Below, piece by piece: positions 4,953 through 42,891 of a stretch of DNA of 64,000 nucleotides (position 1 is its first letter; each line of letters begins with the position of its first letter). Below the pieces are notes generated by a model, which was not told the origin of the DNA, did not search any database, and was given only the letters and a program-made list of their open reading frames with translations. Source of the stretch: an uncultured archaeon (GTDB taxonomy: Archaea; Micrarchaeota; Micrarchaeia; Anstonellales; Bilamarchaeaceae); NCBI GenBank assembly GCA_963734525.1, contig CAVTHI010000001.1, positions 25,637-89,636 on the forward strand, read 5' to 3'. Position numbers and translations under genes: made by a program.

Positions 4953-6304
4953 ATGCACACGCAAAGCTTCGACATTACGATAAAGAACCTGAGCAAAATC
5001 GAGGGGCACACAGACCTGGACGTGGCCGTCAAGGACGGGAAGGTCGTCAGCGCGAAGCTGAGGATTGACGAGAACAAGAGGTTCTTCACGACCGGGGCCA
5101 TAGGAAAGCCGGCCCTCGGCATCCACCAGGTCGTGTCGAGGATATGCGGGACCTGCTCGATAGCCCACCTGCTCGCCTGCATCAACTGCGTCGAGGACGC
5201 GTTTTCCGTGGAGCCCTCGGAGCAGACGGTCAAGCTGAGGGACCTGCTCCTGTACGGGCTGAACATCAGGGACCATGCGCATGCACCTGTACCTGTTCTG
5301 CCTGCCGGACATCTTCGGGAAGGATTCGGTGCTCGATTTCGCGGACGAGGGATACGAGCACGACCTCGTGCACAAGGCGTTCGACGTGAAAAGCGCCGGG
5401 AACGACCTGTGCGTGCTGTCCGGGGGGAGGGCGGTCCATTCGCCGTTCCCGCAGGTAGGGGGCTTCATGAAGATTCCGAAGAAGGAGGACGCGAAAAAAA
5501 TCGCGGACGAGCTTCGGAGTATACGCAGCTCGGCAATCGAGTTCGTCGACATCTTCAAGAAGAGGGACTTCCGGTTCATTTCCGAGACGATGTACATCGC
5601 GCTCCGCAACGACAGGTTCAGCTACCAGGACGGGGACCTGATGACGTCCGACGGCGCGCGCGTCGCGCACGGCAATTTCCGGGACCACCTCCAGAAGTTC
5701 GTCGTGCCGTACTCGCAGGCGCCGGGATTCGAATTCAAGGGGAGGCCGTATGTCGTCGGCGCCCTGGCCAGGATGAACATGAACCGGGACACGCTCCACC
5801 GGGATACGCGCAGGGACCTTTCGTCCGCGCTTTCCGTGTTCCCCTCGGACAACATCTTCAACAATAACCTGGCCCAGGCCATCGAGATAGTCCACTGCAT
5901 CGATTCGTCCATCGAGCTCCTCGAGACCATGGAGTTCCGGAACGAGCCTAAAGTCGCGATAAAGCCCAAAAAATCCGAAGGAATCGGCGTGCTGGAGGCT
6001 CCGCGCGGGACGCTTGTACTATCATCTGCACATCGACGACGCCGGGAAGATAGAGTTCGCGGACCTCGTGATTCCGACGTCGCAGAACCAGATAAAGATG
6101 GACAAGGACATCGGGGCGCTCGTCCAGGACAGGATAGAGAAGGGCGTCCCCCGGGAGCAGATGCCCCTGGAAATCGAGAAGCTCATCCGCGCCTACGACC
6201 CCTGCATGAGCTGCGCGACGCACTTCCTGAAAGTAAACTGGAAAGGAGGCGCGAAACCGCGGAGAGCGCCTTCCCGGGCGGCATCGAAGACGGAACGGCG
6301 ATGA
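4953..6304 (+). CDS. [NiFe]-hydrogenase large subunit (group 3-like), interrupted by two apparent +1 frameshifts (~5276 and ~6014)
   Basis: N-terminal RICGTCSIAH and C-terminal DPCMSCATH nickel-binding motifs in three consecutive frames (ORFs 4953.., 5275.., 6014..); junctions restore to ...IRDHAMHLYLF... and ...EAPRGTLYYHLHIDD... by deleting one inserted base each. Confidence 0.75.
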
Positions 6305-6653
6305 TGCGGACCGAATCCAACGCGCCCATCTTCAGCAGGAGCTTGAGCGTCATCGCGAGGTCGAAATCGTGCATCGAGTATGCCTTGCCGCCGGAAAGCG
6401 AATCGATGCCCTCGAGGAGCACGACCTTGTCAAGGCCGACAGCCGAATCCAGGATGATGAGGTCGCGGCCTTCCTTCTCGAGGTTCTCGGCGGCGTCGAA
6501 TTCCTTGAATGAGACGAACGGGAACTTTTTCTGCAGCAGGGGCATCAGGCGCAGGGCTATGGAATCGGCATCCACGAGCGGGTTGCCGAAAACGAGGATT
6601 TTTTGGCGCGAACCGGCCCTTTTCGCATTTCCCCTTATGGTGTTCAGCCCCAT
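6183..6653 (-). CDS. hydrogenase maturation protease (HycI/HoxW family)
   Basis: KILVFGNPLVDADSIALRL..., LIILDSAVGL and HDFDLAMTL motifs typical of the endopeptidase family; adjacent to hydrogenase large subunit. Confidence 0.7.
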   Translation of the reverse strand: MGLNTIRGNAKRAGSRQKILVFGNPLVDADSIALRLMPLLQKKFPFVSFKEFDAAENLEKEGRDLIILDSAVGLDKVVLLEGIDSLSGGKAYSMHDFDLAMTLKLLLKMGALDSVRIIAVPSSMPPGKALSAVSRLLSSLLSGSASRSSCRGRRRG

Positions 6654-7348
6654 CCTTCCATCCGGAGTTTTTTAGGGTCCACGGAAAGCGCGACGAGGCA
6701 TTCGCGGACTGCCTTCACCATCCCCGGAGGCCCGCATACGAACCAGTCGAAATCTTTCGCGGTCTGGACGTGGCGGACAAGCATCTCGTGGTTCACCCGC
6801 CCGCATTCGCCCGCCCAGCCATCCGGCTTTTCGCGCGTGAGCGTGATTACGACTTTTATGCCAGGGTGTTTTTTCTGGAGCTCCGCAAGCTCGTCCGCGA
6901 ATAGCACGTGGTCGCGCGTCCTCGTGCTGTAGAATAGCACGAACCGGCCGGGCACGTTTTTTTCGGATATCTGCCGGAGCATGCTCATTATCGGCGAGAT
7001 GCCCGTCCCCCCTGCGATGAAGGCGGCCTTCTGCTCGTTCTTGTATGCCATGTGGCCTGCAGGGCCTTCGACGCCAAGGATGTCGCCTGATTTGAGCTTG
7101 GCGAGCTGGCTCGTCATCTGCCCTCCGACCATGTCTATGGCGAATTCGAGGTAATCCATCGAAGGGACCGAAGCGACGGAGTAAGGCCGCCGGAGGACGC
7201 TTGCGCCGCCATCATCCAGCCTGTGAAGGAAGAAGAACTGGCCCGGGACATACGGGGGAATCCGGCCTGAAACCGGCTGAAGGCGGAAAATCCTGACATC
7301 CGGCGCCGGGGAGCCGACCTTGATGACCTTATATCGTTCTATCGCCAA
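6644..7348 (-). CDS. FAD/NAD(P)-binding oxidoreductase, ferredoxin-NADP reductase-like (no Fe-S cysteine cluster)
   Basis: RPYSVAS FAD motif, GGTGISP NAD(P) motif, CGPPGM; 234 aa; resembles HydG/PyrK flavoprotein module without C-terminal 2Fe-2S cysteines. Confidence 0.65.
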   Translation of the reverse strand: MAIERYKVIKVGSPAPDVRIFRLQPVSGRIPPYVPGQFFFLHRLDDGGASVLRRPYSVASVPSMDYLEFAIDMVGGQMTSQLAKLKSGDILGVEGPAGHMAYKNEQKAAFIAGGTGISPIMSMLRQISEKNVPGRFVLFYSTRTRDHVLFADELAELQKKHPGIKVVITLTREKPDGWAGECGRVNHEMLVRHVQTAKDFDWFVCGPPGMVKAVRECLVALSVDPKKLRMEGWG

Positions 7349-7504
7349 ATAAACACCGGAAAAGAGCTGTCAATGCGCTGCTTACGCCTTGATATTAAGC
7401 TAAATATTTAAAGATGCACAGCAGAAAGACGTTGAACCGGGCCCGGCAGGGATGCGGGCCCCCAACAGGCGGGGAATAGCCCGAAGGGAGAAGGGAGAAT
7501 CTGA

Positions 7505-8452
7505 ATGGTCCTTTGCATAATCGCATTTTTCGTCTTCGCAGTGATGTCCGTGTTCTCGGCGAAATACAGGCCCCTGGCACGCGAGGGGCTGAGGTGCGTG
7601 TTCAGGACGGTCACATTCAAGCCGTGCGATACCGGGCTGGACGACCGCATCAAGGCCGAGATGGTCAGCGGGCTGCTGAAATTCTCGCCGGGCGGGGCGA
7701 AGCTCCTGAATAGGCATTTCACGCTGTTCTCGTGGATATTCGTCCTGCTGAGCGCCGGCAGCCTGATTTACAGCCTGTACGGCATATACAACTTCTATTA
7801 CTTCGGCAACTGCGACGGGCCGGCCAGCGTGAACGCCTGCGTCCTCAACCAGATTACCGGGGATTACGGGCGGTTCAGCGAGCCCAAGGACCTGGTGGCC
7901 CCCACGGCCCTGGACGGAATAACCGCCGGGATGGAGGGCGCGGACACCGTCATTGTGGAATTCGGATGCTTCACCTGCCCGTACACCGCGAAGGCCGAAC
8001 CCGCAGTCCAGCAGATACTGCGCAAGTACGACGATTCCGTTTATTACGTGTTCAAACCGTACCCGCTCCCGAACCACAACAACAGCTATGATGCCGCGCG
8101 CGCCGTGCTCTGCGCGAACAGGCAGGGCAAGCAATGGGAGCTGCGCGAGGAGATTTTCCGCCAGCAGGAGGTCTGCTCCACAGACGGCTCGATAGCCATC
8201 CGCCAGCTCGCGCAGGATTCGGGGCTTGACATGGCCGCGTTCGACTCGTGCTTCGACAACAACGAGACCGGGGCCGAGCTCGATAGGTACGTCCGGGAGG
8301 GCCAGGATGCGCGCATATACGCGACCCCGACGTTCTTCATAAACGGCAAGGCAATCGTAGGCCCGAAAACGCTCGAGCAGTTCGAATGCGCCATGAAGAA
8401 GGAGAAGGGCGTCTTCGAGGAGCTGGACTGCTGGCTGAAGGGGATGGGCTGA
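7505..8452 (+). CDS. membrane-anchored DsbA-like thiol:disulfide oxidoreductase
   Basis: N-terminal TM helices, thioredoxin-fold CFTCPYT (CxxC) after a beta-strand, ATPTFFINGK DsbA signature. Confidence 0.65.
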   Translation: MVLCIIAFFVFAVMSVFSAKYRPLAREGLRCVFRTVTFKPCDTGLDDRIKAEMVSGLLKFSPGGAKLLNRHFTLFSWIFVLLSAGSLIYSLYGIYNFYYFGNCDGPASVNACVLNQITGDYGRFSEPKDLVAPTALDGITAGMEGADTVIVEFGCFTCPYTAKAEPAVQQILRKYDDSVYYVFKPYPLPNHNNSYDAARAVLCANRQGKQWELREEIFRQQEVCSTDGSIAIRQLAQDSGLDMAAFDSCFDNNETGAELDRYVREGQDARIYATPTFFINGKAIVGPKTLEQFECAMKKEKGVFEELDCWLKGMG

Positions 8453-9639
8453 TGAAGGACGTGAGGAAGGATTTCCCGATACTTGCGAGGCACCCGCAGC
8501 TGACGTATCTCGACAGCGCGTGCACGTCGCTGAAGCCGCGCGAAGTGATTGATGCCGAATCCTCTTATTACGCCGAACTCGGCGCTTGCGCGGGGAGGAG
8601 CTCGCACAGGCTCGGCCGCGAGGCCAGCAGCGCGGTCGAAGGCGCGAGGGAGAAAATCGCGGCGTTCGTGGGCGCGAAGGCCGAGGAGGCCGTGTGGACG
8701 AGGAACGCGACCGAAGCGCTCAATATCGTCGCATACGGGCTCGATTACTCGAAAAGGAGGAAGGTCGTGACGAGCGCGCTCGAGCACCATGCGGTGCTCC
8801 TTCCATGGATGGACCTGCAGGAGCAGGGGAAAATCAGGCTGGAGATAGTCGGGTGCGACGAAAGCGGGCATGTCGGCGAGGAAAGGTGGGCAAATGCCAT
8901 AGACAGGGACACGGCGCTGGTCGTCACGAACAACGGGAACAACACCAGCGGCGTCAGCCAGTGCACGAAAAACCTCGCGAAGCTCGCCCACGACAACGGG
9001 GCGCTCCTGTGCATAGACGGGGCGCAGGGCATCCCGCACCGCAGGGTCGATTTCAGGAAGGAGAATTTCGATTTCCTGTGCTTTTCTGCCCACAAGATGC
9101 TCGGCCCGACCGGAATCGGGGCGCTCGTGATGAAAAAGGAGCACATGGCGAAGCTCCAGCCGCTCGTCCGGGGAGGGGGGACCGTGAAGACCGTGACCCT
9201 CGCCAAGGTCGAGCCGGTCAATGATTACACGAGATTCGAGGCTGGCGTCCAGCACTACAGCGGGATGCTGGGCTTTTCCGCGGCATGCGACTACCTGAGG
9301 GCCTACGGGATGGAAAACGTGGAGGCGCATGAGAAGGCGCTCGCATCGGCCATGCGCTCGGAGCTTGAAAACGCAGGCGTCCAGATTCATGGCCCGTTGG
9401 ATGAGCAAAGGAGCGCACTCTATTCGTTTAACATCAGGGGCGCCAAGGCGCACGACGTCGCGCTTATGCTGGACAAGGACGGCATCGCGGTCCGGAGCGG
9501 GTTCTTCTGCGCCCAGCCAGCCATGGAGGCCATGGGCGCAAAAGGCGGCGCGGTGAGGGCGAGCTGCTACATATACAATACTCCAGAGGACGTGAAAAGG
9601 CTCGGCGATGCCCTGAAAAAAATCGCGGCGCTCTACTGA
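8452..9639 (+). CDS. cysteine desulfurase / class V aminotransferase (SufS/CsdA-like)
   Basis: LTYLDSACTSLKP..., SAHKMLGPTGIG (PLP-Lys), C-terminal catalytic Cys; start ATG overlaps upstream stop (TGATG). Confidence 0.8.
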   Translation: MKDVRKDFPILARHPQLTYLDSACTSLKPREVIDAESSYYAELGACAGRSSHRLGREASSAVEGAREKIAAFVGAKAEEAVWTRNATEALNIVAYGLDYSKRRKVVTSALEHHAVLLPWMDLQEQGKIRLEIVGCDESGHVGEERWANAIDRDTALVVTNNGNNTSGVSQCTKNLAKLAHDNGALLCIDGAQGIPHRRVDFRKENFDFLCFSAHKMLGPTGIGALVMKKEHMAKLQPLVRGGGTVKTVTLAKVEPVNDYTRFEAGVQHYSGMLGFSAACDYLRAYGMENVEAHEKALASAMRSELENAGVQIHGPLDEQRSALYSFNIRGAKAHDVALMLDKDGIAVRSGFFCAQPAMEAMGAKGGAVRASCYIYNTPEDVKRLGDALKKIAALY

Positions 9640-13295: not shown

Positions 13296-15734
13296 TCACT
13301 GCCAGCCCGTCAGTTTCAGCGTAGCGTGCTTTATGTAGTCGTTGACAATCAGCGGGAATATGACGGAATACCCGATTACAAACGCGGTCATATCCAACGG
13401 TACTGCGCCCATCCCAAGCCAGCCGGCAGAGACTATGACGATCGCGATTGCCATATCGGCGACCACTGCTCCGAAGAAGACCTTGCTCGGGGCGGAATCC
13501 CAGAAATGCCCATGCTCCCTCAGCACGAAGACCGAGAACATGGCGAAGAAGAATAGTATCTCGAAGGAGAACGTGTGCAGCGCCGCGTCGTTCGCCATAA
13601 GGCCGAAAAAATGGTCGCCGAGGTAAAGGAGCCCGAACGCCTCCACGACCAGCACAAGGCCGAGCAGGATGGAGATGCGTGTCAGCCCCCGGATATCCCA
13701 GACGTCTGGCTTCCGGGACATCTTGACGTTATCGGTCGAGAGGGTGATTTTCACGAAATCGGTCATGAAAATCATGAGAAGGACCGCCGTGGACGAGACC
13801 ACGAACCGGCCTGTCAGCAGGAAAGCGAAAACGATGAAGCAGGTCTTTAGGATGGTCCGCGTGATCTTGTTCAGTATCCAGGTGTTTATCCGTTTGAACA
13901 TCAGCCGGCCGGATTTGATGGGTTCCACGACATGCGGCAACCCCGGCCCGGTCAAGACGATGCTGGCCGACCCCTTGGCGACATCCGTCGCATTGCTCAC
14001 CGCGATGCCGACCTCGGCCTGCCTCAGTGCGGGCGCGTCATTCACGCCGTCGCCGGTCATACCGATGATGTGTCCCCGGCTCTGGAGGCTTTTCACGATT
14101 GTGAATTTGTCGCCGGGGTAAATCTCCGCAAAACCGTCGCTTTTTTCGGCCAGCTCCCCGGCTTCGGCGGGGTTCTCGTCGAAATACTGCTTCAGGTTCG
14201 ATACCTTGATGACATTGCCTCCGATTCCGGCCTCTTTCGATATTTCCCGGCCTATCGGCAAGGCGTCACCGGTGAGCAGCTTGATGGAAACGCCCAGGTC
14301 CTTCAGTTCGCTCACCATCTGTAACGTATCGTCCCGCAGGGGGTCGTGTAGCGCGACCAGGCCAGCCAGCCTTATGCCGCCCTTGCCTTCGCCCGCTGCC
14401 ACCGCCAGCGTCCGGTAGCCGTTCCTTGCCAGATGGTCCATGGTGGCCTCAAGCCGGCGGACTGCCGCTTCGTCCTGCCCGCAGAGCCGTGCGATGACGT
14501 CGACCGCCCCCTTCATCACCCGGACATGCTTGCCCCCCAGCTTTACGACAGCCTCCGTCCTTCTTGCCGTGGTGTCGAAGGGTATGAACTTCAGGACAGG
14601 AGGCGGCGCATCGAGCAGCTTTCTCCCCTTCGCAGCGCTTATAAACGCGGCATCGATATTGTCCTGGTTCGCTTCCTGCGATGCCAGCGCCCCGTAGAGA
14701 AGGACATCGTCGGCGCGGAATCCGTTGTAGGGAAGGACCTCATTGACAGACAGCCTGCCGGATGTTATCGTCCCGGTCTTGTCAACGCATAGGATGTCCA
14801 TGCTGGCTGCGTCATCGGGGGCGCTTAGCCGAGTCACCAATACGCCCTTCCTTACCAGCTCCATCGAGCTGATGGCCATGCTGATGGTGAACATCGCGGG
14901 AAGCGCGACCGGAACCGCCCCAAGGAGGAGGATGAGCATCAGCGGGAGCGAATCGAGCAGGCTCAATCCGTTGATTAAGGAGAATACAACGGCCACCGCA
15001 AGAAGGGCCAGCACTATCAAGAGAAGCCATTTGGAAAGGTCGGATACCACGTCCTGGATGTGGAGCTTGGGCTTTGCAATCTGGACGAGCTGAACCGTCT
15101 TTCCGAAATACGTCTCCGCGCCGGTTGCGATGACAACGCCGCCCGCCTCGCCGCGGGTGATTATTGAGCCGGAATAAAGCGCGTCGTCCTTCGCCTTCTC
15201 AAGGGGCTCGGATTCACCGGTCAGCGCCGCCTGGTCCACCATCACGGAGCCCTCGGCCACCTTGACGTCCGCCGGGACGAAATCACCCATCCGGAGGCGG
15301 ATTATGTCCCCGCTGACTAGTTCCCTGGCCTGGACGACGTCCCATGCTCCACCCCTCAGCACCCGGGTATAAACCTGGAGCTTTTTCTTGAGGCTTTCGA
15401 CTGCGTTGATTGCGCGCTGCTCCTGCGCGAACCCGAGGATGGCGTTGAAAACGAGCAGGGCGCTGACAATATAGAAGTCCGAATCCTTCTGCAGCAGCCA
15501 TGACAGGAAGATGATTGCCTCCAGCATCCATTCGGCCGGACCCCAGAATTTCTTCAGGAAACGCAGGAAGGGATTCCGCCTCTTTTCCTGGACTTCGTTG
15601 TAACCGTTCCGGAGCAAGCGGGCCTTAGCCTCCTCCACCGTTAGGCCTTTCGAGAGGTCGGAGCCGAGCGATTCGGCCGCCTTCCTGGCGCTTCCGGCAA
15701 ATAGCGACGCTTCAGCTTTGTTTGCTGCTGCCAT
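13296..15734 (-). CDS. P-type cation-transporting ATPase, P3A (plasma-membrane H+-ATPase)-like
   Basis: 812 aa; ICVDKTGTIT phosphorylation site, TGDGVNDAPAL, 10 TM; N-terminal GLTVEEAKARLLRNGYNEVQE like PMA1-type pumps. Confidence 0.85.
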   Translation of the reverse strand: MAAANKAEASLFAGSARKAAESLGSDLSKGLTVEEAKARLLRNGYNEVQEKRRNPFLRFLKKFWGPAEWMLEAIIFLSWLLQKDSDFYIVSALLVFNAILGFAQEQRAINAVESLKKKLQVYTRVLRGGAWDVVQARELVSGDIIRLRMGDFVPADVKVAEGSVMVDQAALTGESEPLEKAKDDALYSGSIITRGEAGGVVIATGAETYFGKTVQLVQIAKPKLHIQDVVSDLSKWLLLIVLALLAVAVVFSLINGLSLLDSLPLMLILLLGAVPVALPAMFTISMAISSMELVRKGVLVTRLSAPDDAASMDILCVDKTGTITSGRLSVNEVLPYNGFRADDVLLYGALASQEANQDNIDAAFISAAKGRKLLDAPPPVLKFIPFDTTARRTEAVVKLGGKHVRVMKGAVDVIARLCGQDEAAVRRLEATMDHLARNGYRTLAVAAGEGKGGIRLAGLVALHDPLRDDTLQMVSELKDLGVSIKLLTGDALPIGREISKEAGIGGNVIKVSNLKQYFDENPAEAGELAEKSDGFAEIYPGDKFTIVKSLQSRGHIIGMTGDGVNDAPALRQAEVGIAVSNATDVAKGSASIVLTGPGLPHVVEPIKSGRLMFKRINTWILNKITRTILKTCFIVFAFLLTGRFVVSSTAVLLMIFMTDFVKITLSTDNVKMSRKPDVWDIRGLTRISILLGLVLVVEAFGLLYLGDHFFGLMANDAALHTFSFEILFFFAMFSVFVLREHGHFWDSAPSKVFFGAVVADMAIAIVIVSAGWLGMGAVPLDMTAFVIGYSVIFPLIVNDYIKHATLKLTGWQ

Positions 15735-15793
15735 TCAACCCCCTTAGGGCGTTGGAAATTAAAAAGAATGCAGGGCCGCGCGATTTTCAGCAG

Positions 15794-15802
15794 TTTTTTA
15801 TT
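15794..15802 (+). promoter_or_regulatory. TATA-box-like element (ttttttatt) ~25 nt upstream of ATG at 15825
   Basis: AT-rich octamer at the spacing expected for archaeal leaderless transcripts. Confidence 0.3.
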
Positions 15803-15824
15803 CGCTGGCTCGGTAGGCTGAACA

Positions 15825-16010
15825 ATGGTAGCTATGGAAGAAGCATTCCAAGCAGGCGACGTCTACTTAGATTTTCCATACGAGAGCTGCAAGTTCAGGT
15901 GGGAGAAGAAGACCAAGAAGGTGTTCGCACGGTTCTACGGACAGCCAGAGCATGAGATAGATCATACATCCGACTCTATCTTCCGTGATGCCATTTCCGC
16001 CGGAAACTGA
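15825..16010 (+). CDS. small hypothetical protein (61 aa)
   Basis: ORF with TATA-like element at -25; protein-like sequence; no homolog recognised. Confidence 0.35.
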   Translation: MVAMEEAFQAGDVYLDFPYESCKFRWEKKTKKVFARFYGQPEHEIDHTSDSIFRDAISAGN

Positions 16011-16075
16011 TTACGCGAGAAGAATACTATAAGGATTGAGCATACATATTTGGTTGACCCGGGGGATGGTAAATC

Positions 16076-16661
16076 ATGCCGCAGGCATCATCAAAAGCCA
16101 GGACAAAAAGGGAGTTGCCGCCGGAAAAGCGTGAAGAACTGCTCAAGGCGTTGAAAGCCCGTTTCGAGAAAAACATGAACCGCCATAAAGGTCTTGAATG
16201 GGCGAAAGTGCGGGCAAGGCTGGAAGCTGATACTGAAAAACTTTGGTCGCTTAGTGAGATGGAAAGAACAGGAGGCGAACCGGATGTCGTCGGCCTGGAT
16301 AAAAAGACGGGCGAATGCATTTTTTACGATTGTTCGGCGGAAAGCCCCAAAGGCCGCAGGAGCGTTTGCTACGACCATGATGCGTTAGAGGCAAGAAAGG
16401 AGCATAAGCCGGAAAATAACGCTTTGGACATGGCGGCTGCAATGGGCATCGAGCTGTTATCTGAAGAGCAATACCGGGAGCTGCAGAAACTCGGGGATTT
16501 CGATGCGAACACGTCGAGCTGGGTGAAAACGCCTCCCGGACATCAGGAAACTCGGCGGCGCCATCTTCTGCGACCGCCGCTACGGCCATGTCTTCGTGTA
16601 TCACAATGGTGCCGATTCCTACTATGCCGCCAGGGGGTTCCGCGGCTCGCTTAGGGTTTGA
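16076..16661 (+). CDS. DUF4256-family protein, C-terminus disrupted by one +1 frameshift (~16536, CCC run)
   Basis: highly conserved ...WSLSEMERTGGEPDVVG...CYDHDALEARKEHKPENNALDMAAAMGIELL... body; alternate frame after cctccc restores conserved PDIRKLGGAIFCDRRYGHVFVYHNGADSYYAARGFRGSLRV end. Confidence 0.7.
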
Positions 16662-16821
16662 ATTTATTGGACTACGGCCGGGACCATAAAAACAAGGTAA
16701 GGCCAAGCTCGAGAAATGCTGATAGGAATCTGACCTACAAATTTGTCATTAAGAACACGTTCACCCATATATTTTCACCTCGATAAGTTAGGCATCAAAC
16801 AATATAAAAAAAGGCAAAAAA

Positions 16822-16894
16822 GGGCCATGACCGTGAATCGAACACGGGCCTAGAGGGCCACAGCCTCTCACGCTACCATTACGCCATCATGGCC
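16822..16894 (-). tRNA. tRNA-His (anticodon GTG), with G-1
   Basis: cloverleaf folded by hand: 7-bp acceptor, extra 5' G-1 opposite C73, D-loop with GG, anticodon stem AGAGG/CCTCT, loop CTGTGGC, T-loop TTCGATT. Confidence 0.8.
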
Positions 16895-17050
16895 ATTCAT
16901 CAAAACTGATTGTTATCTCTGAAAACTCGCTTGTTAGCTGTGCCTAGCAAGTTTCTGGATACAAACGTGCGCTCTAGTATTTAAAATATCTCCATTTTGC
17001 GCCCTGAAAGCTCCGGAACGAGAAAAAAATGAGGAAAAAATGGGCTTGGC

Positions 17051-17368
17051 TTATTTGGCGAGCTTGTTCAGCTCCTCCTGGATGAGCCACTGCGCAATCG
17101 GCATGAAGACTATCCATGCAATCAGCAGGACGACCTTGTCGCGCGCCTTCTTCGAGACCGTCTCGATGTCCTCGCAGTACCTCCAGAGGACGTAGATGTT
17201 CAGGAAAGGCACGAAGAGCCCCAGCGTCCAGAGAAGCGGGCTGGTCTTCCCGTTCACGAGGCCGTTCAGCTCGTCCCTGGTCTTGTAGAACCAGTAGAGC
17301 CCGTATATGTACATCGTGATGAAGCTCACGACAACAACGAAAACAGGATCACGTTTCTTGACCGCCAT
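17051..17368 (-). CDS. small membrane protein, DUF4234-like
   Basis: 105 aa; two TM segments with YWFYK and WRYCEDIE motifs. Confidence 0.45.
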   Translation of the reverse strand: MAVKKRDPVFVVVVSFITMYIYGLYWFYKTRDELNGLVNGKTSPLLWTLGLFVPFLNIYVLWRYCEDIETVSKKARDKVVLLIAWIVFMPIAQWLIQEELNKLAK

Positions 17369-24153: not shown

Positions 24154-24216
24154 GGTGCAGGATGGGCATAAGAAATATATATGGATAGCGAAACGCTTTC
24201 CGCCTTTGGCCGGAGG

Positions 24217-27563: not shown

Positions 27564-27662
27564 TTCTTTTTATTTTTCTTATCCCTTATTTTTCCTTGAT
27601 TTTATTTTATAGGCCGTCCCGCCCGGCCTATTTTTAAGAATTGCATGCGACAAGCGGACTGA

Positions 27663-28570
27663 TGAAAATACTTATTACCGGCTCGAGCGGCACGATAGGG
27701 ACAAGGCTGTTCGAGATGCTGCTTGCACAGGGGCACGATGTCACGGGAGCCGACCGCAGGCCGAACAAATGGAAGCCGGAGCTGGATGCGTAAGACACGC
27801 CGGATAGACCTTCTCGACAAGGACGCGCTGATGGGGCTTGAAGGGCGGTATGACGCAATCGTTCATCTTGCAGCAAACGCGCTCGTGTACAAGCTGGTCG
27901 TCAACCCGGACATGGCCATGGAGAATGTGAACACCTGCTTCAACGTCCTGGAATACGCCAGGGCCAAAGATGTCGGCAGGGTGTTCTTCGCATCGTCCAG
28001 GGAAGTCTACGGCAACATCATGGGCGCAAAGCATGTAAGCGAAGGCGACATGCGGGTCGGGAACTGCGAAAGCCCGTATTCGGCGAGCAAGATGGCAGGT
28101 GAGGCGTACATGCACGCGTATTCAAACTGCTACGGCATCAGGCACGTGATAGCGCGGTTTTCCAACGTCTATGGGATGTACGACGACTCCGAGCGCGTCG
28201 TGCCCCTCTGGATACGGCAGATGAAGAAGGGCGAGGCCGTGACCATCTACGGCAGGGAGAAGACATTGGATTTCACCTACATCGACGACTGCGTCGACGG
28301 CATTACCCGCATCGTCGGCAGGTTCGATTCCGTAGCAGGCGAAACGTTCAACATCGCGTCCGGCAACGACGTCAAGCTGACCGACGTCGCGGAGATGCTG
28401 AAGGGCATCATCAAGTCGAAATCGGAAATACGCTGGGCGACATCCGTCCGGGCGAGGTCTGGAAATACAAGGCCGACAATTCCAAGGCGAAGAAACTGCT
28501 CGGATTTATGCCGAAAAGAGGATCGAGGACGGACTGAAAAGGACTGTCGGGTGGTATTCAGCGTATTAAA
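27663..28570 (+). CDS. NAD-dependent epimerase/dehydratase, interrupted by 2-3 apparent +1 frameshifts
   Basis: N-terminal MKILITGSSGTIGTRL Rossmann motif stops at ~27794; body in ORF 27723..28577 (YSASK catalytic motif); conserved C-terminus ...GLKRTVGWY found in a third frame near 28440-28560. Confidence 0.7.
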
Positions 28571-28779: not shown

Positions 28780-29238
28780 TTATGACCTAAACCCTTTTGG
28801 GCGGGATTTTTTACTTCTAATATCTTTCAAACTAATCCAACTTTCGGCTTCACAAAAAGTAATTTCAAATGCATCAAAGAAACCACTTCGTCCTAAAACT
28901 ATTTCATCGAGCTCGTTCAAAATACAACAATGGATATTTCGAAGTGTAACAGGATTGTGTATCAGAGGTATTTCCATCGTGATACTAGATTCAATACCGG
29001 ATACTAGTCCCCCGGCAGTATCAATCTTAGTTTCCTCACCTTGTTCGAGCTCAAGGATTTCTGCGATATCATTGTTGATATACATCCAAGTTGATCCTGA
29101 ATCGATTAACCCCATTGTTTCGAATTGGTTGCCTCCACTACCTTTCAAAATAACAGGTATACGAGGAGCTAGCGGTTTGGAATCGTCTTCGTGCTCTAAT
29201 GACAGTGATTTTCTATAATGAAACTTTTGCCCACTCAT
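28780..29238 (-). CDS. retropepsin-like aspartic peptidase (clan AA)
   Basis: LIDSGST D(S/T)G active-site motif and downstream EIVLGRSGFF hydrophobic-Gly motif; 152 aa; in low-GC islet. Confidence 0.6.
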   Translation of the reverse strand: MSGQKFHYRKSLSLEHEDDSKPLAPRIPVILKGSGGNQFETMGLIDSGSTWMYINNDIAEILELEQGEETKIDTAGGLVSGIESSITMEIPLIHNPVTLRNIHCCILNELDEIVLGRSGFFDAFEITFCEAESWISLKDIRSKKSRPKGFRS

Positions 29239-29242
29239 AGAA

Positions 29243-29449
29243 TCACAATATTTCCATGGAATTTTTTTTGGGGATTTTCGTTAACATGACACGTTTGTTT
29301 TTTGATTCCCCCAAAGCCTTTTTGTAGACGTCCGTGGCATTAGGCCCAGACGCTATAAGATTACCTTTGAAAATAGCTACCCACATACCCTGAAAATTAG
29401 ATAAATCCATTGATAGATAAGCATGATAATTCTTTGAGATGGACGTCAA
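29243..29449 (-). CDS. small hypothetical protein (68 aa) immediately upstream of retropepsin-like gene
   Basis: ORF 4 nt upstream of the protease gene, same strand, same low GC. Confidence 0.4.
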   Translation of the reverse strand: MTSISKNYHAYLSMDLSNFQGMWVAIFKGNLIASGPNATDVYKKALGESKNKRVMLTKIPKKNSMEIL

Positions 29450-29609
29450 AGCATATCACCTTAGTTGATAGTTTCCAGGTAGTATAATAAACTTATAGAC
29501 CTCGTTGTGGCGCATTATTGTGAATTATAGTTATAATTGGTGTCTACTAATATAAAAATCTGTCTTTTTTGGGTATACTTACCACCGAGGGATACTCAGG
29601 AAAAGAAAA

Positions 29610-29787
29610 TGCTCCTGCCGCGATTTGAACGCGGGTTCACAGAGTTCTTCCGCCTTTTAGGAAAAGGCGGCCCAAAACAGGTCTGTCTGCAAATCCTTCG
29701 AGGATTTGCATACAGATTGTTTTTGGGCGCTTTTTTCCAAAAAGCGCTGAGAGTCTGTTGTCCTTGACCGGGCTAGACTACAGAAGC
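29610..29787 (-). tRNA. tRNA-Glu (anticodon CTC) with 103-nt intron at canonical 37/38 position (exons ~29748-29787 and ~29610-29644)
   Basis: hand-folded: acceptor GCTTCTG/CAGGAGC, D-arm GTCT/GGAC, anticodon stem ACAGA/TCTGT split by intron, loop CTCTCA|C, T-arm CCGCG TTCAAAT CGCGG. Confidence 0.65.
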
Positions 29788-31061: not shown

Positions 31062-32541
31062 GTGACAATGGATTTCAACAGGGATGTCAAAAAGCCCAGT
31101 TTCAGGAAGATTGACGATTACGTCTGGGAGATAGGCACGGATTACAAGCCGGGCATGCTCGTCCCGGCGCGCATGTTCGCGAGCGAAGCGCTTCTCAACC
31201 ACATGGACAACACGGTCTTCGACCAGATAACCAACGTCGCGACGCTTCCGGGCATCGTGAAATACGCTTACTGCATGCCGGACGGGCACAGCGGCTACGG
31301 GTTCCCGATTGGCGGGGTCGCCGCGATGGACGTCAACGACAACGGCGTCATCTCGCCTGGCGGCATCGGGTTCGACATCAACTGCGGCATGAGGCTCGTC
31401 CGCACGGATTTGACAATCAAGGACGTCCAGCCGCGCCTGAAGGAGCTCGTGGATAAATTGTTCGGGAAGGTCCCGGCAGGCGTCGGCAGCAAGGGATTCG
31501 TCAGGCTGGATGCCGGCGCGTTCCGCAAGGTAATCGAGGAGGGCGCGCCTTGGTGCGTCGACAACGGCTACGGATGGAAGGACGACCTCGAAGCCACCGA
31601 GCTCGGGGGCAGGGACGATGGCGCGGACGAGAAGACAGTTAGCGACAAGGCGGTCGAAAGGGGGAAGGGCCAGATAGGCACGCTGGGGAGCGGCAACCAT
31701 TACCTTGAAATCCAGCATGTGAAGGAGGAGAACATATTCGACAAGGCGCTCGCAAAGAAATGGGGCATCTTCCCGGACCAGATAGTCATCATGTTCCATT
31801 GCGGCTCGCGCGGGTTCGGCCACCAGGTCGCGACGGACTACCTCAACCAGTTCCTCTCGGTCATGGAGAGCAAGTACAAGATCAAGATACTCGACAGGGA
31901 GCTTGCATGCGCCCCGTTCAATTCCCCTGAGGGGCAGGCGTATTTCAAGGCCATGAAGTGCGCGATGAACATGAGCTTCGCGAACAGGCAGACAATCGTC
32001 CACCGCGTGCGCGAGGTGTTCAGCGAAGTCTTCAAGACGGATGCGGAAAAGCTCGGGATGAAACAGGTTTACGACGTCTCGCACAACCGGGCCTCGGTGG
32101 AGAAGCACAGCGTGGACGGGACCATGAAGGAGCTGGTCGTCCACCGCAAGGGCGCGACCGCGGCATACGGCCCGGGCAGGGAAGAGCTTTCCCCAAGGTT
32201 CCGCGACGATGGCCAGCCGGTAATCATCGGCGGGAGCATGGAAACCGGCAGCTACCTGCTTTCAGGCGTCGCAAGCGGCGCGAGCACGTGGTTCACGACA
32301 GCCCACGGCTCAGGCAGGACGATGTCCAGGACGAGGGCCAAGCAGCTCTACCGCGGCGACCAACTGCAGAAGGACATGGAAAAGCGCGGGATTTACGTGA
32401 AGACGAGCTCGTATGCGCGGCCTTGCCGAAGAGGCAGGCGCGGCGTACAAGGACATCGACGAGGTCATCGAGACCACCCACCGGGCGGGGATATCGAACA
32501 AGGTGGCCAAGCTCGTGCCTATAGGGAATGTCAAGGGCTAG
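31062..32541 (+). CDS. rtcB: RNA-splicing ligase RtcB, with one +1 frameshift near 32417
   Basis: [39 protein letters not shown] motifs; alternate frame after tatgcgcgg restores canonical ...[42 protein letters not shown] end. Confidence 0.85.
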
Positions 32542-33502
32542 AGCTCGCGAAGTCGCCCCTCCCAGTGTTGATTGCGAGAGTGGTGGAGCGCTCCAAGACC
32601 GAGCCCCGGATTGCCGCGAATACCGTCGCGGCACTAGGCTCGCATGCGAGGCCGGCGCGATTCGCCACCTTGTAGGCCTCCAGGATTTCATCGTCGGTGA
32701 CATAGCACAGGCAAGCAGTCATTTTCCGGAAAAAGGAGAATGGTGTCACAAGTTTGTCCGCAACACGGCTTTTCTGGGAGACGCGAAAAAATGGGTTCCC
32801 GGCCACGGAGGCGCCCCGTATCCTGGCTATGGAATGCGGATGCTCCCACTGCTCATTTCCGAAAGGGTGGTGACACATGAAGTTGAAATAGAGCTCGCCG
32901 CTGCCGATGGGCATGAAAATCACATCCGCCGTCTCCCGGGCGACCTCTCCGACCAGCCGTACGTACAGGCCGGATTCGGGGGACTGGAAAGTGAGATATT
33001 CCGGGTTTATAAGCGAAACGTGGTCTTTTCCAAAGCGCCCGACCAAAAGCTCGACCTGCTTGCTCCGTGAGAGTATGATGTCAATCAGCTCAGACGGGGG
33101 AAAATAATGGGTTGAAAGATCGAGTTCAAGGACCTCGGACACCTCGGCAAGTTTCCCCTTGATTGCCGGTTCCAGCCCCCTATCCACGAAATTGACGACA
33201 CCGACAACCCGGTCGCCGGTATACCGGTTGTACATATCCGCGATTTTTCCAAGGCTATAGCCGGCGTTGCCATAGGTTATGGAATAGACGACCATGGCGT
33301 TGACAATAGCGCGCTCCGCGTGGAATAGCTCAAGCAGCCGCACGCTCCGGAAATCCTTCATGGTGCCCGTGACGGTGCGGCTACAATCCTTTACCCAGAG
33401 GTCCTCTGTTCTGCAGAAATCCGACAGCAGTGGCGGCGCCCGTATCAGCGGGGCCTTTGGCCTGAGCAGCCGGTGAGGGAATGACGACAACTGGGTAGGC
33501 AT
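32531..33502 (-). CDS. PLP-dependent enzyme, fold type II (threonine synthase / cysteine synthase / TrpB-like)
   Basis: TGTMKDFRS (PLP-Lys SFKDR-like), [22 protein letters not shown] glycine loop, GLACEPSAA. Confidence 0.6.
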
Positions 33503-33612
33503 ATGTAGATATGTGTTGATAAATGTTTAAAAATAAGTTTAATCGGCCGATTCCAGGAGTTGCACCGCCACCTGGGCGCCGGTTTATAACCAATTGGGCA
33601 GGTGTATCCACT

Positions 33613-34504
33613 ATGGACAGGGTTCCAGTCACAATTATCACAGGCTACCTTGGCGCCGGCAAAACGACGCTGCTCAGGCGGATAGCCGCCCAATCCAGCG
33701 AGTCCGGGATGAAGCTCGCCATCATCATGAACGAATTCGGCGAAATCGCCATAGACAGCAAGGTGGTCGAAGGCAAGGGCATCAGCATAGCCGAGCTTGC
33801 CGGCGGCTGCGTGTGCTGCTCGCTTTCCGGCGAATTCGGCCTAGCGGTGTCGGAACTGCTTGAAACGGCGAAACCGGAATGGATTGTGGTCGAGACGACC
33901 GGCGTCGCCGAGCCCGCCGCGCTCGCTTATGACATCCGGGAAAACATCCCCGAATATCCGGCTGGACTCGATTGTGACGGTAGTGGACGCAGATGCGATG
34001 GCGAGGTTCCCGAGCCTCGGGCACACCGGACGGGAGCAAATCGAGCTTGCGGACATCATAATCATCAACAAGGCGGACCTTGTCGCGGAGGACGCGCTCG
34101 ACCAAGTGAGGCAGGCGGTCAAGATAGCTGAATGGCCGCGCATCGATTGGAGGCTGAGCGGTGCAGGGTGGATACGCCTGCGCTTTTCGGAGTCATGCGC
34201 GATGCGCCCGCACCAAAGCACAAGACGCACAAGGTTTCTTTCGGGCATTTCGATTATTCATCCGACAAGACAGCTGGACCATGCTTCGCTCATCCGCGTC
34301 CTTGAAACGCTCCCGTCCGGGATTTACCGCGCCAAGGGGTTCGCCAGGACGGAAAAGGGCGGCTTCCTCGTGAATTACGTGGCGGGAAGGTTCGAGTTCG
34401 AGGAGCATGCGTGCAGCAGGACCGGGCTGGTTTTCATAGGCAAGGATGCAGGCAGGTTCGAGGAGGGCATCGTCAGGTCGCTCGAATCCGCATCCGCGAC
34501 ATGA
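33613..34504 (+). CDS. CobW/COG0523-family G3E GTPase (metallochaperone-like), with +1 frameshift at CCCC run ~33950
   Basis: GYLGAGKTTLL P-loop, GCVCC metal motif, NKADL; second half in ORF 33860..34504 with GISSF-like C-terminal motif. Confidence 0.75.
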
Positions 34505-36000: not shown

Positions 36001-37315
36001 ATGAAAAGGAACGTGCTCATTCTCGGCGCCGCAGGCAGGGATTTCCATAATTTCAACATGTTTTTCCGGGACAACCCGGAATACAGCGTCGCGGGCTTCA
36101 CCGCCACCCAGATTCCGAATATAGCGGACCGCAGATATCCGCCGGAGCTATCGGGGAAGCTATATCCCAAGGGGATACCGATTTTCGACGAAAGCAGGAT
36201 GGAGGAGCTCATCGTGAAGCACGCAATCGACGAGGTGTATTTCTCGTATTCCGACGTCGCGCAACGAGTATGTCATGCACCTCGCTTCCAGGGCGCAGGC
36301 AAAGGGGGCGAGCTTCGTCCTTCTCGGCCCGCGCGAGACCATGCTGAAAAGCTCGAAGCGCGTCATCGCGGTCACCGCGGTGAGGACGGGGGCCGGCAAA
36401 AGCGCGCTTTCCCGCACGATTACGAAAATCCTCAAGGCGAAGGGCGTCAAATTCGTGGTTATCCGCCACCCGATGCCGTATGGCGACCTCGTGAAGCAGC
36501 GCGTCCAGCGGTTCGCCACCATGGAGGACATGGAAAAGCAGAACTGCACGTTCGAGGAGAGGGAGGAATACGAGCCGCATGTGCGGAACGGCGTCATCGT
36601 GTACGCAGGAATCGACTATGGCGAAATCCTGAGGCAGGCCGAAAAGGAGGCTGACGTAATCGTTTGGGACGGGGGCAACAACGACATGTCGTTCATCAAG
36701 CCGGACCTGCACATAACGATTGCGGATTCGCTGCGGCCCGGCCACGAGCTTTGGTATTACCCGGGCGAGACGAATTTCCGCATGGCGGACATCATAGTCA
36801 TAAACAAGGTGAGCGAGAACCCGATGGACGTCCGGCGCATCCTCAAGAACTGCGAGAAGGCGAACCCGAAGGCGAAAGTCATCGAGACCGACATGGAATT
36901 GACGCCGTCCAGGGAATTCGAGCTTTACGGGAAGAAAACGATAGTCATCGAGGACGGCCCGACTGTGACGCACGGAGGGATGAAATTCGGCGCCGGGTTC
37001 GAATACGCCGCGAGGAACGGGGCGGACATCATAGACCCGAGGCCTTTTGCGGTCGGGAGCATCAAGGAGATATATTCCAAATTCGACAGCATCGGGCTCG
37101 TCGTGCCCTCCATGGGGTATTACGAGAAGCAGATGAAGGACCTGGCCGAGACGATAAACCGGAGCAAGGCCGAAATCGTGGTTTCGGGAACCCCGATAAA
37201 CATCACCAAGCTGCTTAATGTCAACATACCGGTCCTGCACATCGATTTCAACATCAAGGAGCGCACCGGAAGCCTGGATTCGATAGTCGCGAAGTTCCTC
37301 AAGGGAAAGGACTGA
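36001..37315 (+). CDS. P-loop protein of the cyclic 2,3-diphosphoglycerate synthetase / DUF1611-like family, with +1 frameshift ~36261
   Basis: N-terminal VLILGAAGRDFHNFN Rossmann-like domain, then P-loop AVTAVRTGAGKSALS in ORF 36275..37315; junction restores to ...SDVANEYVMHLA... by removing one base after gcg. Confidence 0.55.
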
Positions 37316-41649: not shown

Positions 41650-41692
41650 AGTTTTTAAACACGATTCGCCAATCAAGGTTCTATCTTCAATT

Positions 41693-41846
41693 GCCTCGGT
41701 AGCTCAGCCGGTAGAGCGGCTGACTGTTAAGGCTTTTTGACTTCTGTCTTTCTCCGGGCAAAAACCCTGGAAAAAACCCTGAGGATAAAGGAGGTCAATT
41801 CGCCAAAGCAATCAGCAGGCCGGAGGTTCGAATCCTCCCCGGGGCG
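41693..41846 (+). tRNA. tRNA-Asn (anticodon GTT) with 81-nt intron at canonical 37/38 position (~41730-41810)
   Basis: hand-folded: acceptor GCCTCGG/CCGGGGC (one GU), D-arm GCTC AGCCGGTA GAGC, anticodon stem GCTGA/TCAGC interrupted, loop CTGTTA|A, T-arm GGAGG TTCGAAT CCTCC. Confidence 0.75.
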
Positions 41847-41953
41847 TGAAAACATAAGAGAAGCATTAGCCTCGGGGACACGAGAACGATTCGTCGTTCT
41901 CGGAAATCCCCAGGGCGTTTTTCTAATTATAAACACGTCCGGGCCAATAACCG

Positions 41954-42891
41954 ATGGACAAACGCATCTTTGAGGAAAAAATCATGATGAGGGAACTGTC
42001 GCTGGAAGAGGCCAAGCCAATCTGGGACAAATTCGTCCCGGATAAGGTCGTCTGGACCGACGACTGGGACATACGCGTCGCCATCTGCAGGCATTACGGG
42101 TACAAGACCCTGATTCTCTACGACGGGAAAAACTTCTTCCCCCTGATGTTCGACGCCGGACCGGGGGTTCTACGAGATTATCGGCGGGGACAGCGTGGAG
42201 AGGAACTATCTCACGTTCGACCCGGAGTTCATGAAAGAGACCGACGGGATTCCGAAGGACGTGTATTTCGATTTCCTTGTCGAGCGGTTCGACGGATGCC
42301 TGGAGGGGCTCTGCCCGCAGTTTTTCCTGGACCTGACCGGCATTGAGGGCATAGATGACTACCTCAAGCGGTTCTCGAAGAAGCACCGGAAGAATTTCAA
42401 GAATGATTACCGGAAATTCGGCGGATCACGAGTTCCGGAAAGAGGGCTCCCTGGAAGGCATCGCCGAATTCAGCAAGGTGATGTTCGGGGAGAAGTCGGA
42501 CTTCGCATCAGGCGACCGGGGCTGCTATGACATCCTCGACAGGGACCCCCGGACCGAGTATTGGTCGGTAATCAAGGACGGCACCCCCGTGCTCACGACG
42601 CAATACTTCTTCTATGGGAAAACCATGTCGGTCTGCATCTGGGGCGTGGATGAACGATACGGAGATACGCTCAAGGTCGCATTGGTCGAGGCGATAAAGC
42701 TCGCCAAAAGCCGGGGCTGCACCAGGATAGACTATGCCCCGACGTATTCGGGCTGGAAATTCTTCTATCGCCTGGACACCGCGCCGCTGTGGAGGTACAA
42801 GCGGGGCAACATCCCGGATTCGGTCGATGCGGCAGAATACGGGGTACCGGCGGATGAAAAGGAAAGGCTGAAAGCGGAGGGCAGGCTGTAG
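41954..42891 (+). CDS. GNAT-family acetyltransferase, FemAB/CelD-like (BioF2-like), with two +1 frameshifts (~42166, ~42422)
   Basis: three consecutive ORFs (41954.., 42195.., 42355..) join into one ~310-aa protein when one G is removed from ggggg and one from ggcgga. Confidence 0.55.

What the first reader, a model, noticed from the sequence alone, without database searches (positions are those of the whole stretch)
4953..42891. At least ten single-base insertions (+1 frameshifts) in conserved genes, all extra C/G, several directly after GCG or in C/G runs
All seven genes are well conserved: the hydrogenase large subunit (~5276, ~6014), DUF4256 (~16536), epimerase (~27792, ~28440, ~28530), RtcB (~32417), CobW (~33950), the cDPGS-like gene (~36261) and GNAT (~42166, ~42422). 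Each regains a canonical protein sequence when one inserted base is removed. Examples are gcg(c)atg, gcg(c)ggc, gcg(c)aac, cc(c)gga, ccc(c)gaa and gggg(g)tt. Every event is an insertion, never a deletion, in a window with intact 800-aa ORFs. This pattern fits systematic base-calling or polishing error, possibly triggered by a modified-base motif, better than pseudogenisation. It also means other genes here may be mis-called.
Basis: seen in the sequence. Interest (0 to 1): 0.55.

Follow-up and report, generated by a model that had tools for sequence, protein, structure and literature searches.

The report
Assembly indel errors breaking seven genes
Seven conserved genes in this Micrarchaeota (DPANN archaeon) contig are broken by 14 tiny insertions or deletions that look like consensus errors in the deposited assembly rather than real gene decay, so the finding is a data-quality warning and not new biology.

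Summary
The frameshifts are real in the sequence and in the public record, a 104,226-bp NCBI/ENA contig that carries the same broken products. I count 14 frame-breaking events in the same seven + strand genes. Eleven are 1-base insertions: 5280, 6013, 16537, 27788, 32418, 33952, 34126, 34272, 36262, 42166 and 42421. Two are 1-base deletions (28429, 28517) and one is a 2-base deletion (34145). So "all insertions" and "all C/G" are wrong, and CobW has four events, not one.

Relatives at about 88-92% nucleotide identity have uninterrupted genes at all 11 sites I could align. After correction every gene gives a full-length, single-stretch family or homologue match.

Genuine decay is unlikely:
- dN/dS downstream of the shifts is as low as in intact neighbours.
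- The RtcB tail has 8 synonymous and 0 non-synonymous differences.
- The window lineage has no excess amino-acid changes (17 against 26 in the sisters).
- There are no nonsense codons.
- RtcB is needed for an intron-containing tRNA-Asn in this same window.

The best explanation is indel-only consensus or polishing errors; the platform is unknown. A simple random-error model does not explain three things: strong clustering, all hits in + strand genes, and C inserted after CG at about half the insertion sites. No shared methylation-type motif was found. Interest is low.

The parts
4953..6304 (+). NiFe hydrogenase large subunit (sulfhydrogenase-alpha-like). It reads in frames 0, then 1, then 2. 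The corrected product is 449 aa.
   Evidence: The corrected protein matches NF040828 at 3-414/415 in one stretch. An intact 449-aa relative, P0121, is 98% identical.
5280..5280 (+). Extra C after GCG: catgcg[C]atgcac.
   Evidence: Relative L083 has identical 15-nt flanks without the C. The only JGI contig with these flanks also lacks it.
6012..6013 (+). One extra base, gggacg[C]ttg (or gggac[G]ctt).
   Evidence: L083 reads gggac-tttgtac.
16076..16661 (+). DUF4256 gene. It reads in frame 2, then 0. The corrected product is 194 aa.
   Evidence: The corrected protein matches PF14066 at 1-173/173 in one stretch, E=2e-93. No close DNA relative was found.
16535..16539 (+). One extra C or G in cctCCCGGac.
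   Evidence: The junction was inferred from the frames and the Pfam match.
27662..28569 (+). NAD-dependent epimerase/dehydratase. It reads in frames 2, 0, 2, then 1. The corrected product is 302 aa.
   Evidence: Matches GDP_Man_Dehyd at 1-332/332 in one stretch. An intact 304-aa orthologue is in L086.
27788..27788 (+). Extra G before CG: ctggat[G]cgtaag.
   Evidence: L086 and L085 read ctggac-cggaaa.
28429..28430 (+). One base missing: ggaaat[-]acgctg.
   Evidence: L086 reads ggaaat[A]aagatg.
28517..28518 (+). One base missing after an A4 run: ccgaaaa[-]gagg.
   Evidence: L086 reads ccgaaaa[C]gagc.
31068..32541 (+). RtcB RNA ligase. It reads in frame 0, then 1 for the last 40 codons. The corrected product is 490 aa; the deposited product is an aberrant 535 aa.
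   Evidence: all six cluster relatives are 490 aa. The tail shows 8 synonymous and 0 non-synonymous differences against L084.
32418..32418 (+). Extra C after GCG: tatgcg[C]ggcctt.
   Evidence: L001 and L084 lack it.
33613..34504 (+). CobW/HypB-family GTPase. It reads in frames 1, 2, 0, 1, then 2. The corrected product is 296 aa.
   Evidence: Matches cobW at 1-179/180 and CobW_C at 2-91/94. Intact orthologues of 290-295 aa are in L082 and L084.
33952..33952 (+). Extra G: atcccc[G]aatatc.
   Evidence: L084 has identical flanks without it.
34126..34126 (+). Extra A: caagat[A]gctgaa.
   Evidence: L084 reads caagat-gctgaa. L001 also lacks one base here.
34145..34146 (+). Two bases missing: gcatcg[--]attgga.
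   Evidence: L084 has GT here, and L001 has TTTT against TT.
34272..34273 (+). One extra base: aagac[A]gctgga (or aca[G]ctg).
   Evidence: L084 and L081 both lack one base here.
36001..37315 (+). 437-aa P-loop protein (COG2403 / cDPGS-like; the name is weakly supported). It reads in frame 1, then 2.
   Evidence: An intact 437-aa orthologue is in L081. The PDB hit 9sxb has E=4e-6. dN/dS is 0 upstream and 0.067 downstream of the shift.
36262..36262 (+). Extra C after GCG: gtcgcg[C]aacgag.
   Evidence: L081 has near-identical flanks without it, and L001 also lacks it.
41954..42891 (+). It reads in frames 2, 0, then 1.
   Evidence: Colinear with 300-304-aa homologues across both junctions. No Pfam or NCBIfam family matched.
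42162..42166 (+). One extra G in a G5 run: ccGGGGGttc.
   Evidence: Frames and a gapless alignment at the junction.
42420..42422 (+). One extra base in ttcGGCggat (G before CG, or the C).
   Evidence: Frames and a gapless alignment at the junction.
41693..41846 (+). tRNA-Asn (GUU) with an 82-nt intron. This is context only: it makes the RtcB ligase functionally necessary.
   Evidence: Rfam tRNA model 1-71/71, 56.5 bits, with 82 nt inserted after the anticodon.

Best explanation
The 14 events are indel-type consensus errors in the deposited metagenome-assembled contig. That is the kind of error left by error-prone long reads at modest coverage, or by imperfect polishing. They are not mutations carried by the organism.

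The mechanism is inferred, not shown. At these positions the consensus caller emitted one base too many (11 times) or too few (3 times). About half of the insertions are a C called directly after CG. The errors probably concentrate where the read pile-up was poor, for example in strain-variable segments next to accessory islands. Gene callers then split or mis-extended the seven genes. In the cell the genes are most likely intact and functional.
For: 1. The lesions are indel-only. After removing or adding 1-2 bases, all seven genes give full-length proteins with no internal stop and end-to-end family or homologue matches.
2. Purifying selection holds in the corrected frames, upstream and downstream of the shifts, against relatives at about 88-92% identity. 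Hydrogenase dN/dS is 0.07-0.11, against 0.13-0.40 in its neighbours. The cDPGS-like gene gives 0 and 0.067. The RtcB tail has 8 synonymous and 0 non-synonymous differences, and the main epimerase segments give 0.11-0.12.
3. A relative-rate test with outgroups shows no acceleration in the window lineage. Window-specific against sister-specific amino-acid changes are 3/3 for the hydrogenase, 3/7 for RtcB, 5-7/8-9 for CobW and 6/7 for the cDPGS-like gene. Intact control genes give the same pattern. Eight indels in these four genes accompanied by no extra substitutions does not fit neutral decay. From general knowledge of mutation-accumulation studies, point substitutions outnumber indels several-fold to about ten-fold.
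4. Insertions outnumber deletions 11 to 3. Natural prokaryotic indel spectra are deletion-biased (established knowledge).
5. RtcB is hit although an intron-containing tRNA-Asn and an intact archease lie in the same window.
6. The hydrogenase small subunit, gamma subunit and maturation protease are intact and under constraint, while only the large subunit is 'broken'.
7. All relatives have uninterrupted ORFs at 11 of 11 testable sites.
8. Non-random local context: 6 of 11 insertions are C after CG or G before CG, against 8% background. Two more share aaga[y]Agctg. This looks like a context-dependent caller error.
9. About 22 indels per 100 kb is the density at which long-read-only assemblies are known to fragment genes (PMC9262707, PMC12007338).
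Against: - No reads, and no independent assembly of the same strain, could be found. The window's proteins occur on one contig only, and the JGI scan found only a relative. The sequencing platform is unknown.
- The events are far from uniformly distributed: 14 events fall in 7 of 64 genes (P=7.5e-5), and none falls in 42.4-64 kb.
- All seven broken genes are on the + strand, 0 of 33 on the minus strand (Fisher P=0.003). K-mer asymmetry does not explain this.
- Only 3-4 of the 14 events are in homopolymers of 3 or more, whereas typical long-read consensus errors are homopolymer-associated and, for nanopore, deletion-rich.
- Multiple hits per gene is also what real pseudogenes show.
Confidence: 0.75

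Rival explanations
1. These are genuine frameshift mutations. Seven dispensable genes have very recently become pseudogenes in this DPANN lineage and have collected several indels each.
For: Several lesions per gene and strong gene-level clustering. Most affected genes are plausibly accessory: the epimerase lies next to a variable low-GC island, the 'GNAT' lies beyond a synteny break, and DUF4256 is another. Most events are outside homopolymers. The broken products are in the public record.
Against: There is no relaxation of selection and no lineage-specific excess of substitutions in the corrected frames. There are no nonsense codons or larger deletions. Insertions outnumber deletions 11 to 3, against the usual deletional bias. 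RtcB is needed for the intron-containing tRNA-Asn. The hydrogenase partner subunits are intact and constrained. All relatives are intact at every testable site.
Confidence: 0.17
2. The errors are systematic base-calling errors triggered by one DNA-modification motif. This is the first reader's suggested cause, and is a special case of the artefact explanation.
For: C after CG (or G before CG) at 6 of 11 insertions, P about 1e-4 to 5e-3. Three sites are exactly GCG[C].
Against: No 3-5-mer lies within 8 nt of more than chance numbers of the 14 sites. The bases around the CG differ from site to site. There are about 100 CpG per kb in the coding sequence, yet only six of them carry such an insertion. 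The A insertions, the homopolymer events and the deletions do not fit. No methyltransferase or methylation data were examined.
Confidence: 0.1
3. The frameshifts are decoded in vivo, by programmed +1 ribosomal frameshifting, quadruplet decoding or a generally frameshift-tolerant translation system, so the genes work as written.
For: Eleven of the 14 events need a +1 shift, and the 2-base deletion is also equivalent to +1. Four sites have an in-frame NCG codon followed by an extra C (P=0.013 from the CpG phase distribution). All events lie on the sense strand of + genes. GCG is a known +1-prone P-site codon in yeast Ty3 (from memory, not tested here).
Against: Relatives at about 88-92% identity have plain ORFs at 11 of 11 sites, so no site is conserved. 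The sites share no motif, stop codon or slippery sequence. 129 in-frame GCG-C occurrences lie in 30 intact genes without any shift. Two events need a -1 shift. The implied 'quadruplets' would be at least eight different sequences.
Confidence: 0.02

Closest known systems
Gene-fragmenting indel errors in long-read or poorly polished (meta)genome assemblies (the IDEEL-type problem; PMC9262707, PMC12007338)
   Same: One- or two-base indels split conserved genes that become full length after correction. The lesions are indel-only. The density is about 22 per 100 kb. Some insertions depend on the local k-mer.
   Different: Only 3-4 of 14 events are in homopolymers. Insertions dominate. The events are clustered in 7 genes and all lie in + strand genes. 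The platform and the reads are unknown.
Pseudogenes of reduced or symbiotic prokaryotic genomes
   Same: Frameshifts in otherwise recognisable genes, often several per gene, in an organism with a symbiotic lifestyle (DPANN).
   Different: No relaxed selection, no nonsense codons, no deletional bias, and an apparently essential gene (RtcB) is affected.
Methylation-motif-associated nanopore consensus errors
   Same: Part of the events share a non-random sequence context, at or next to CpG.
   Different: Those errors are reported mainly as substitutions at a defined motif (general knowledge). Here the events are indels and no defined motif was found.
Programmed +1 ribosomal frameshifting (prfB, Ty3 GCG-AGU-U, Euplotes)
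   Same: Most events would need a +1 shift, and several follow a GCG codon.
   Different: No conservation in relatives, no stop or hungry-codon context, heterogeneous sites, and -1 events are present as well.

Membership tests
Sequencing/assembly indel artefact | The indels are absent from independent accurate reads of the same DNA. | not testable with these tools
   No reads are available. No second assembly of the same strain exists in the collections: the window proteins occur on 1 contig only, and the JGI scan returned only a relative.
Sequencing/assembly indel artefact | Indel-only lesions; the corrected genes are full length with no other damage. | tested here: met
   No internal stops in any corrected gene.
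Sequencing/assembly indel artefact | Sequence downstream of the shift is still under purifying selection in the corrected frame. | tested here: met
   dN/dS is 0-0.12 for the hydrogenase, cDPGS-like gene, RtcB tail and main epimerase segments. The relative-rate test shows no excess.
Sequencing/assembly indel artefact | Errors are scattered irrespective of gene identity and strand. | tested here: not met
   The events are clustered in 7 of 64 genes (P=7.5e-5). All lie on the + strand (P=0.003).
Sequencing/assembly indel artefact | Association with homopolymers, as is typical of long-read consensus errors. | tested here: not met
   Run length is 3 or more at only 3-4 of 14 events: 16537, 42166, 28517 and perhaps 34145.
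True pseudogenes | Relaxed selection or a lineage-specific excess of substitutions. | tested here: not met
True pseudogenes | Nonsense codons, larger deletions and a deletional bias accompany the frameshifts. | tested here: not met
   No stops after correction. Eleven insertions against three deletions.
True pseudogenes | Several lesions in the same gene. | tested here: met
   Hydrogenase 2, epimerase 3, CobW 4 and 'GNAT' 2.
Programmed +1 ribosomal frameshifting | The shift site is conserved in orthologues. | tested here: not met
   Orthologues have uninterrupted ORFs at 11 of 11 sites.
Programmed +1 ribosomal frameshifting | A shared slippery, stop-codon or hungry-codon signal at the site. 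| tested here: not met
   The contexts are heterogeneous. 129 in-frame GCG-C occurrences lie in intact genes.
Methylation-motif-triggered base-calling error | One defined motif lies at or near all error sites. | tested here: not met
   No 3-5-mer is enriched (best P=0.03 among about 670 tested). Only CpG adjacency is seen, at 6 of 11 insertions.
Methylation-motif-triggered base-calling error | A cognate methyltransferase or modification signal is present in the organism. | not tested
   The genome outside the window and the raw signal are not available.

The most novel reading that the evidence does not exclude
The indels are really in the DNA and the genes still function, because this Micrarchaeota lineage tolerates or decodes +1 shifts. 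This could be a frameshift-permissive translation system like that of Euplotes. Insertions after NCG, CCC or GGG codons on the sense strand would then accumulate neutrally. That would account for the sense-strand and codon-phase bias and for the preserved downstream frames.
Probability: 0.03. Interest if true: 0.85.

Novelty: not a real feature. Interest (0 to 1): 0.15.

Why it matters
As a data-quality flag, it means gene calls, completeness estimates and pseudogene counts for this MAG are unreliable. At least 7 of about 64 genes in this window are mis-called. The deposited proteins include a 535-aa RtcB with a spurious C-terminal tail and fragments of a hydrogenase, so metabolic inferences such as 'no functional hydrogenase or RtcB' would be wrong. 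If accurate reads confirmed the indels, the case would become interesting: indel-only, insertion-biased, sense-strand-specific inactivation or recoding in a DPANN archaeon.

Tried and rejected
- Exact look-ups of window proteins to fetch the source record failed, although the proteins are in the collection. The accession and sequencing method stayed unknown.
- A fused three-protein query, meant to save protein searches, returned only long fusion epimerases and wasted the last search.
- A shared methylation-type motif was looked for and not found.
- K-mer asymmetry between sense and antisense strands was tested as the cause of the + strand bias and rejected.
- More frameshifts were looked for in the other roughly 55 genes on both strands, using the Viterbi frame path, Pfam coverage and gene lengths in relatives. 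None was found. The overlapping pair 49470-49934 / 49891-50196 looks like two separate genes.
- An apparent +1/-1 pair at 8221/8228 is a BLAST alignment artefact of four substitutions.
- The literature search for '3300029288' showed only that the closest relatives come from a landfill metagenome.
Full report
WHAT THE WINDOW IS. The window has about 59% G+C with strong GC3 periodicity. The corrected RtcB protein finds Micrarchaeota (DPANN archaea) MAGs as its best relatives; the best is 94% identical at the amino-acid level. The window's own proteins, including the broken ones, are in the public protein collection. They sit on a single 104,226-bp contig with sources NCBI and ENA. Examples are a 535-aa RtcB, a 304-aa hydrogenase fragment, a 346-aa cDPGS-like fragment and a 192-aa DUF4256 fragment. 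The frameshifts are therefore part of the deposited assembly. Look-ups that would have named the record returned nothing.

CHECKING THE OBSERVATION. Three-frame translation shows each of the seven genes continuing in another frame. A codon-usage Viterbi segmentation, which uses no homology, switches frame at eight of the listed positions.

I fetched DNA from close relatives:
- L083 (ENA, 91.6% nucleotide identity, window 1-9569).
- L085 and L086 (ENA and JGI landfill metagenome, about 90%, window 17-28.6 kb and 29.7-31.7 kb).
- L084 (JGI, 89-92%, window 29.7-35.4 kb).
- L081 (JGI, 91.8%, window 34.0-41.9 kb).
- L001 and L082 (81-84%).

In these alignments the window has one extra base at 5280, 6012/6013, 27788, 32418, 33952, 34126, 34272 and 36262. 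It has one base too few at 28429 and 28517, and two too few at 34145. The relatives carry intact genes throughout: hydrogenase 449 aa, epimerase 304 aa, RtcB 490 aa, CobW 290-295 aa and cDPGS-like 437 aa.

The remaining three events (16537, 42166, 42421) have no close DNA relative. They are confirmed because the corrected proteins match full length in one stretch. DUF4256 matches 1-173/173. The 311-aa 'GNAT' is colinear and gap-free at both junctions with 300-304-aa homologues. The corrected hydrogenase, epimerase and CobW also match their family models end to end.

The tally is 14 events in seven genes: 11 single-base insertions, two single-base deletions and one two-base deletion. CobW has four events. 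The extra base is C at 5280, 32418 and 36262 and probably at 6013. It is G at 27788, 33952 and 42166, A at 34126, and ambiguous at 16537, 34272 and 42421.

ARE OTHER GENES AFFECTED? I found no further frameshift in the other roughly 55 genes on either strand. The checks were the Viterbi path, Pfam coverage, and gene lengths identical to those called in relatives. One possible fifteenth event is an extra G in a G6 run at about 4914. It changes only the last few codons of the hydrogenase small subunit.

REAL DECAY OR ERROR? I used the relatives for evolutionary tests.
- dN/dS in the corrected frames. The three hydrogenase segments give 0.07, 0.11 and 0.07, lower than every neighbouring intact gene (0.13-0.40).
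- The cDPGS-like gene gives 0 before and 0.067 after its frameshift, like its intact neighbours (0.04-0.18).
- The 40 codons of RtcB after the shift have 8 synonymous and 0 non-synonymous differences. The main epimerase segments give 0.11-0.12.
- Short C-terminal segments of CobW and the epimerase are noisier (0.39 to above 1 on 28-76 codons).
- A relative-rate test with outgroups shows no acceleration in the window lineage. Window-specific against sister-specific amino-acid changes are 3/3 for the hydrogenase, 3/7 for RtcB, 5-7/8-9 for CobW and 6/7 for the cDPGS-like gene, the same pattern as in intact control genes.

So eight indels in those four genes came with no extra substitutions, no stop codons and no larger deletions. 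Spontaneous mutation gives several to about ten point substitutions per indel, and is deletion-biased in prokaryotes (established knowledge). A neutral-decay history would therefore have left tens of extra amino-acid changes.

Functional context points the same way. An intron-containing tRNA-Asn (82-nt intron) lies at 41693-41846 and an intact archease lies next to CobW, so RtcB should be needed. The hydrogenase small subunit, gamma subunit and maturation protease are intact and constrained. Long-read-only or under-polished assemblies are known to fragment genes through indels at comparable densities (PMC9262707, PMC12007338). I conclude that consensus error is the best explanation, with confidence about 0.75.

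WHAT DOES NOT FIT A SIMPLE ERROR MODEL.
1. Clustering. Fourteen events in 7 of 64 genes has P=7.5e-5 under uniform placement. There is nothing at all in 42.4-64 kb.
2. Strand. All seven genes are on the + strand, 0 of 33 on the minus strand (Fisher P=0.003). The obvious k-mers are equally common on the + strand of minus-strand genes. This is a post-hoc observation among several tests.
3. Context. Six of 11 insertions are a C directly after CG or a G directly before CG, against 8.2% of positions (P about 1e-4, or 5e-3 with positional slack). The four + oriented cases all follow an in-frame NCG codon (P=0.013). Two CobW insertions share aaga[y]-A-gctg.
4. Only 3-4 events lie in homopolymers of 3 or more.
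5. No 3-5-mer motif is shared by the sites, so a single methylation motif is not supported.

One partial, inferred explanation for the clustering is that several affected genes border strain-variable segments. The epimerase abuts a low-GC island that differs from relatives. RtcB and CobW flank a 1.08-kb segment absent from relatives. The 'GNAT' lies just past a synteny break. Metagenomic pile-ups are poorest in such places. The hydrogenase and the cDPGS-like gene, however, sit in conserved blocks.

RIVALS. Genuine recent pseudogenes (0.17) would explain multiple hits per gene, but not the absence of any other decay, the insertion bias or the RtcB hit. Programmed or tolerated +1 decoding (about 0.02-0.03) is excluded as a conserved mechanism. 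Relatives have plain ORFs at 11 of 11 sites, the sites are heterogeneous, two events need -1, and 129 in-frame GCG-C occurrences in intact genes need no shift. It remains the most novel reading not strictly excluded.

NAMES. The hydrogenase is sulfhydrogenase-alpha-like, in group 3. 'cDPGS-like' rests on one weak partial PDB hit. 'GNAT' is unsupported.

VERDICT. Interest is low. The clustering, strand bias and CG-C context deserve a genome-wide check against the reads.

Noticed in passing
window 32540-33621: A roughly 1.08-kb segment sits between RtcB and CobW in the window and is absent from relatives L001, L082 and L084, where the two genes are adjacent. It carries a minus-strand 323-aa ORF (32531-33502) with a PLP-dependent-enzyme (PALP) match. 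It lies in the middle of the densest cluster of frameshifts.
   Followed up: partly
window 41693-41846: A tRNA-Asn (GUU) gene with an 82-nt intron after the anticodon. Rfam found it, but ARAGORN in its default mode missed it.
   Followed up: yes
window 24141-24269 versus L085 7290-8342 / L086 1818-2882: Relatives carry an extra roughly 1-kb Na+/Ca2+ exchanger gene (329 aa) between the Na+/H+ exchanger and the amino-acid permease. The window lacks it.
   Followed up: no
window 28572-29730: A low-GC (about 45%) stretch after the epimerase whose content differs from the about 3 kb found at the same place in relative L086. It holds a minus-strand ORF (28780-29238) with a weak retroviral-type aspartyl-protease match. 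It looks like a variable island.
   Followed up: partly
window 4909-4914: A G6 run at the 3' end of the hydrogenase small-subunit gene has one more base than relative L083 and changes the last codons (…AKGGKAIAKG* against …AKGARQ*). This may be a fifteenth indel error or natural variation at the C terminus.
   Followed up: partly
window 20841: A 50-bp segment containing an inverted repeat (…CATTGGAACACTGTTCCAATG) is present in relative L085 and missing from the window, just after the stop of the 20397-20843 gene.
   Followed up: no
window 1-64000 (all 14 events): All seven broken genes are on the + strand (0 of 33 minus-strand genes, Fisher P=0.003). No event lies in the last 21.6 kb. Random sequencing error does not explain this.
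   Followed up: partly
window 15691-17051: The DUF4256 gene and its surroundings score as non-coding under the window's own codon-usage model, which suggests atypical composition and possibly recent acquisition. A tRNA-His lies at 16822-16893.
   Followed up: no
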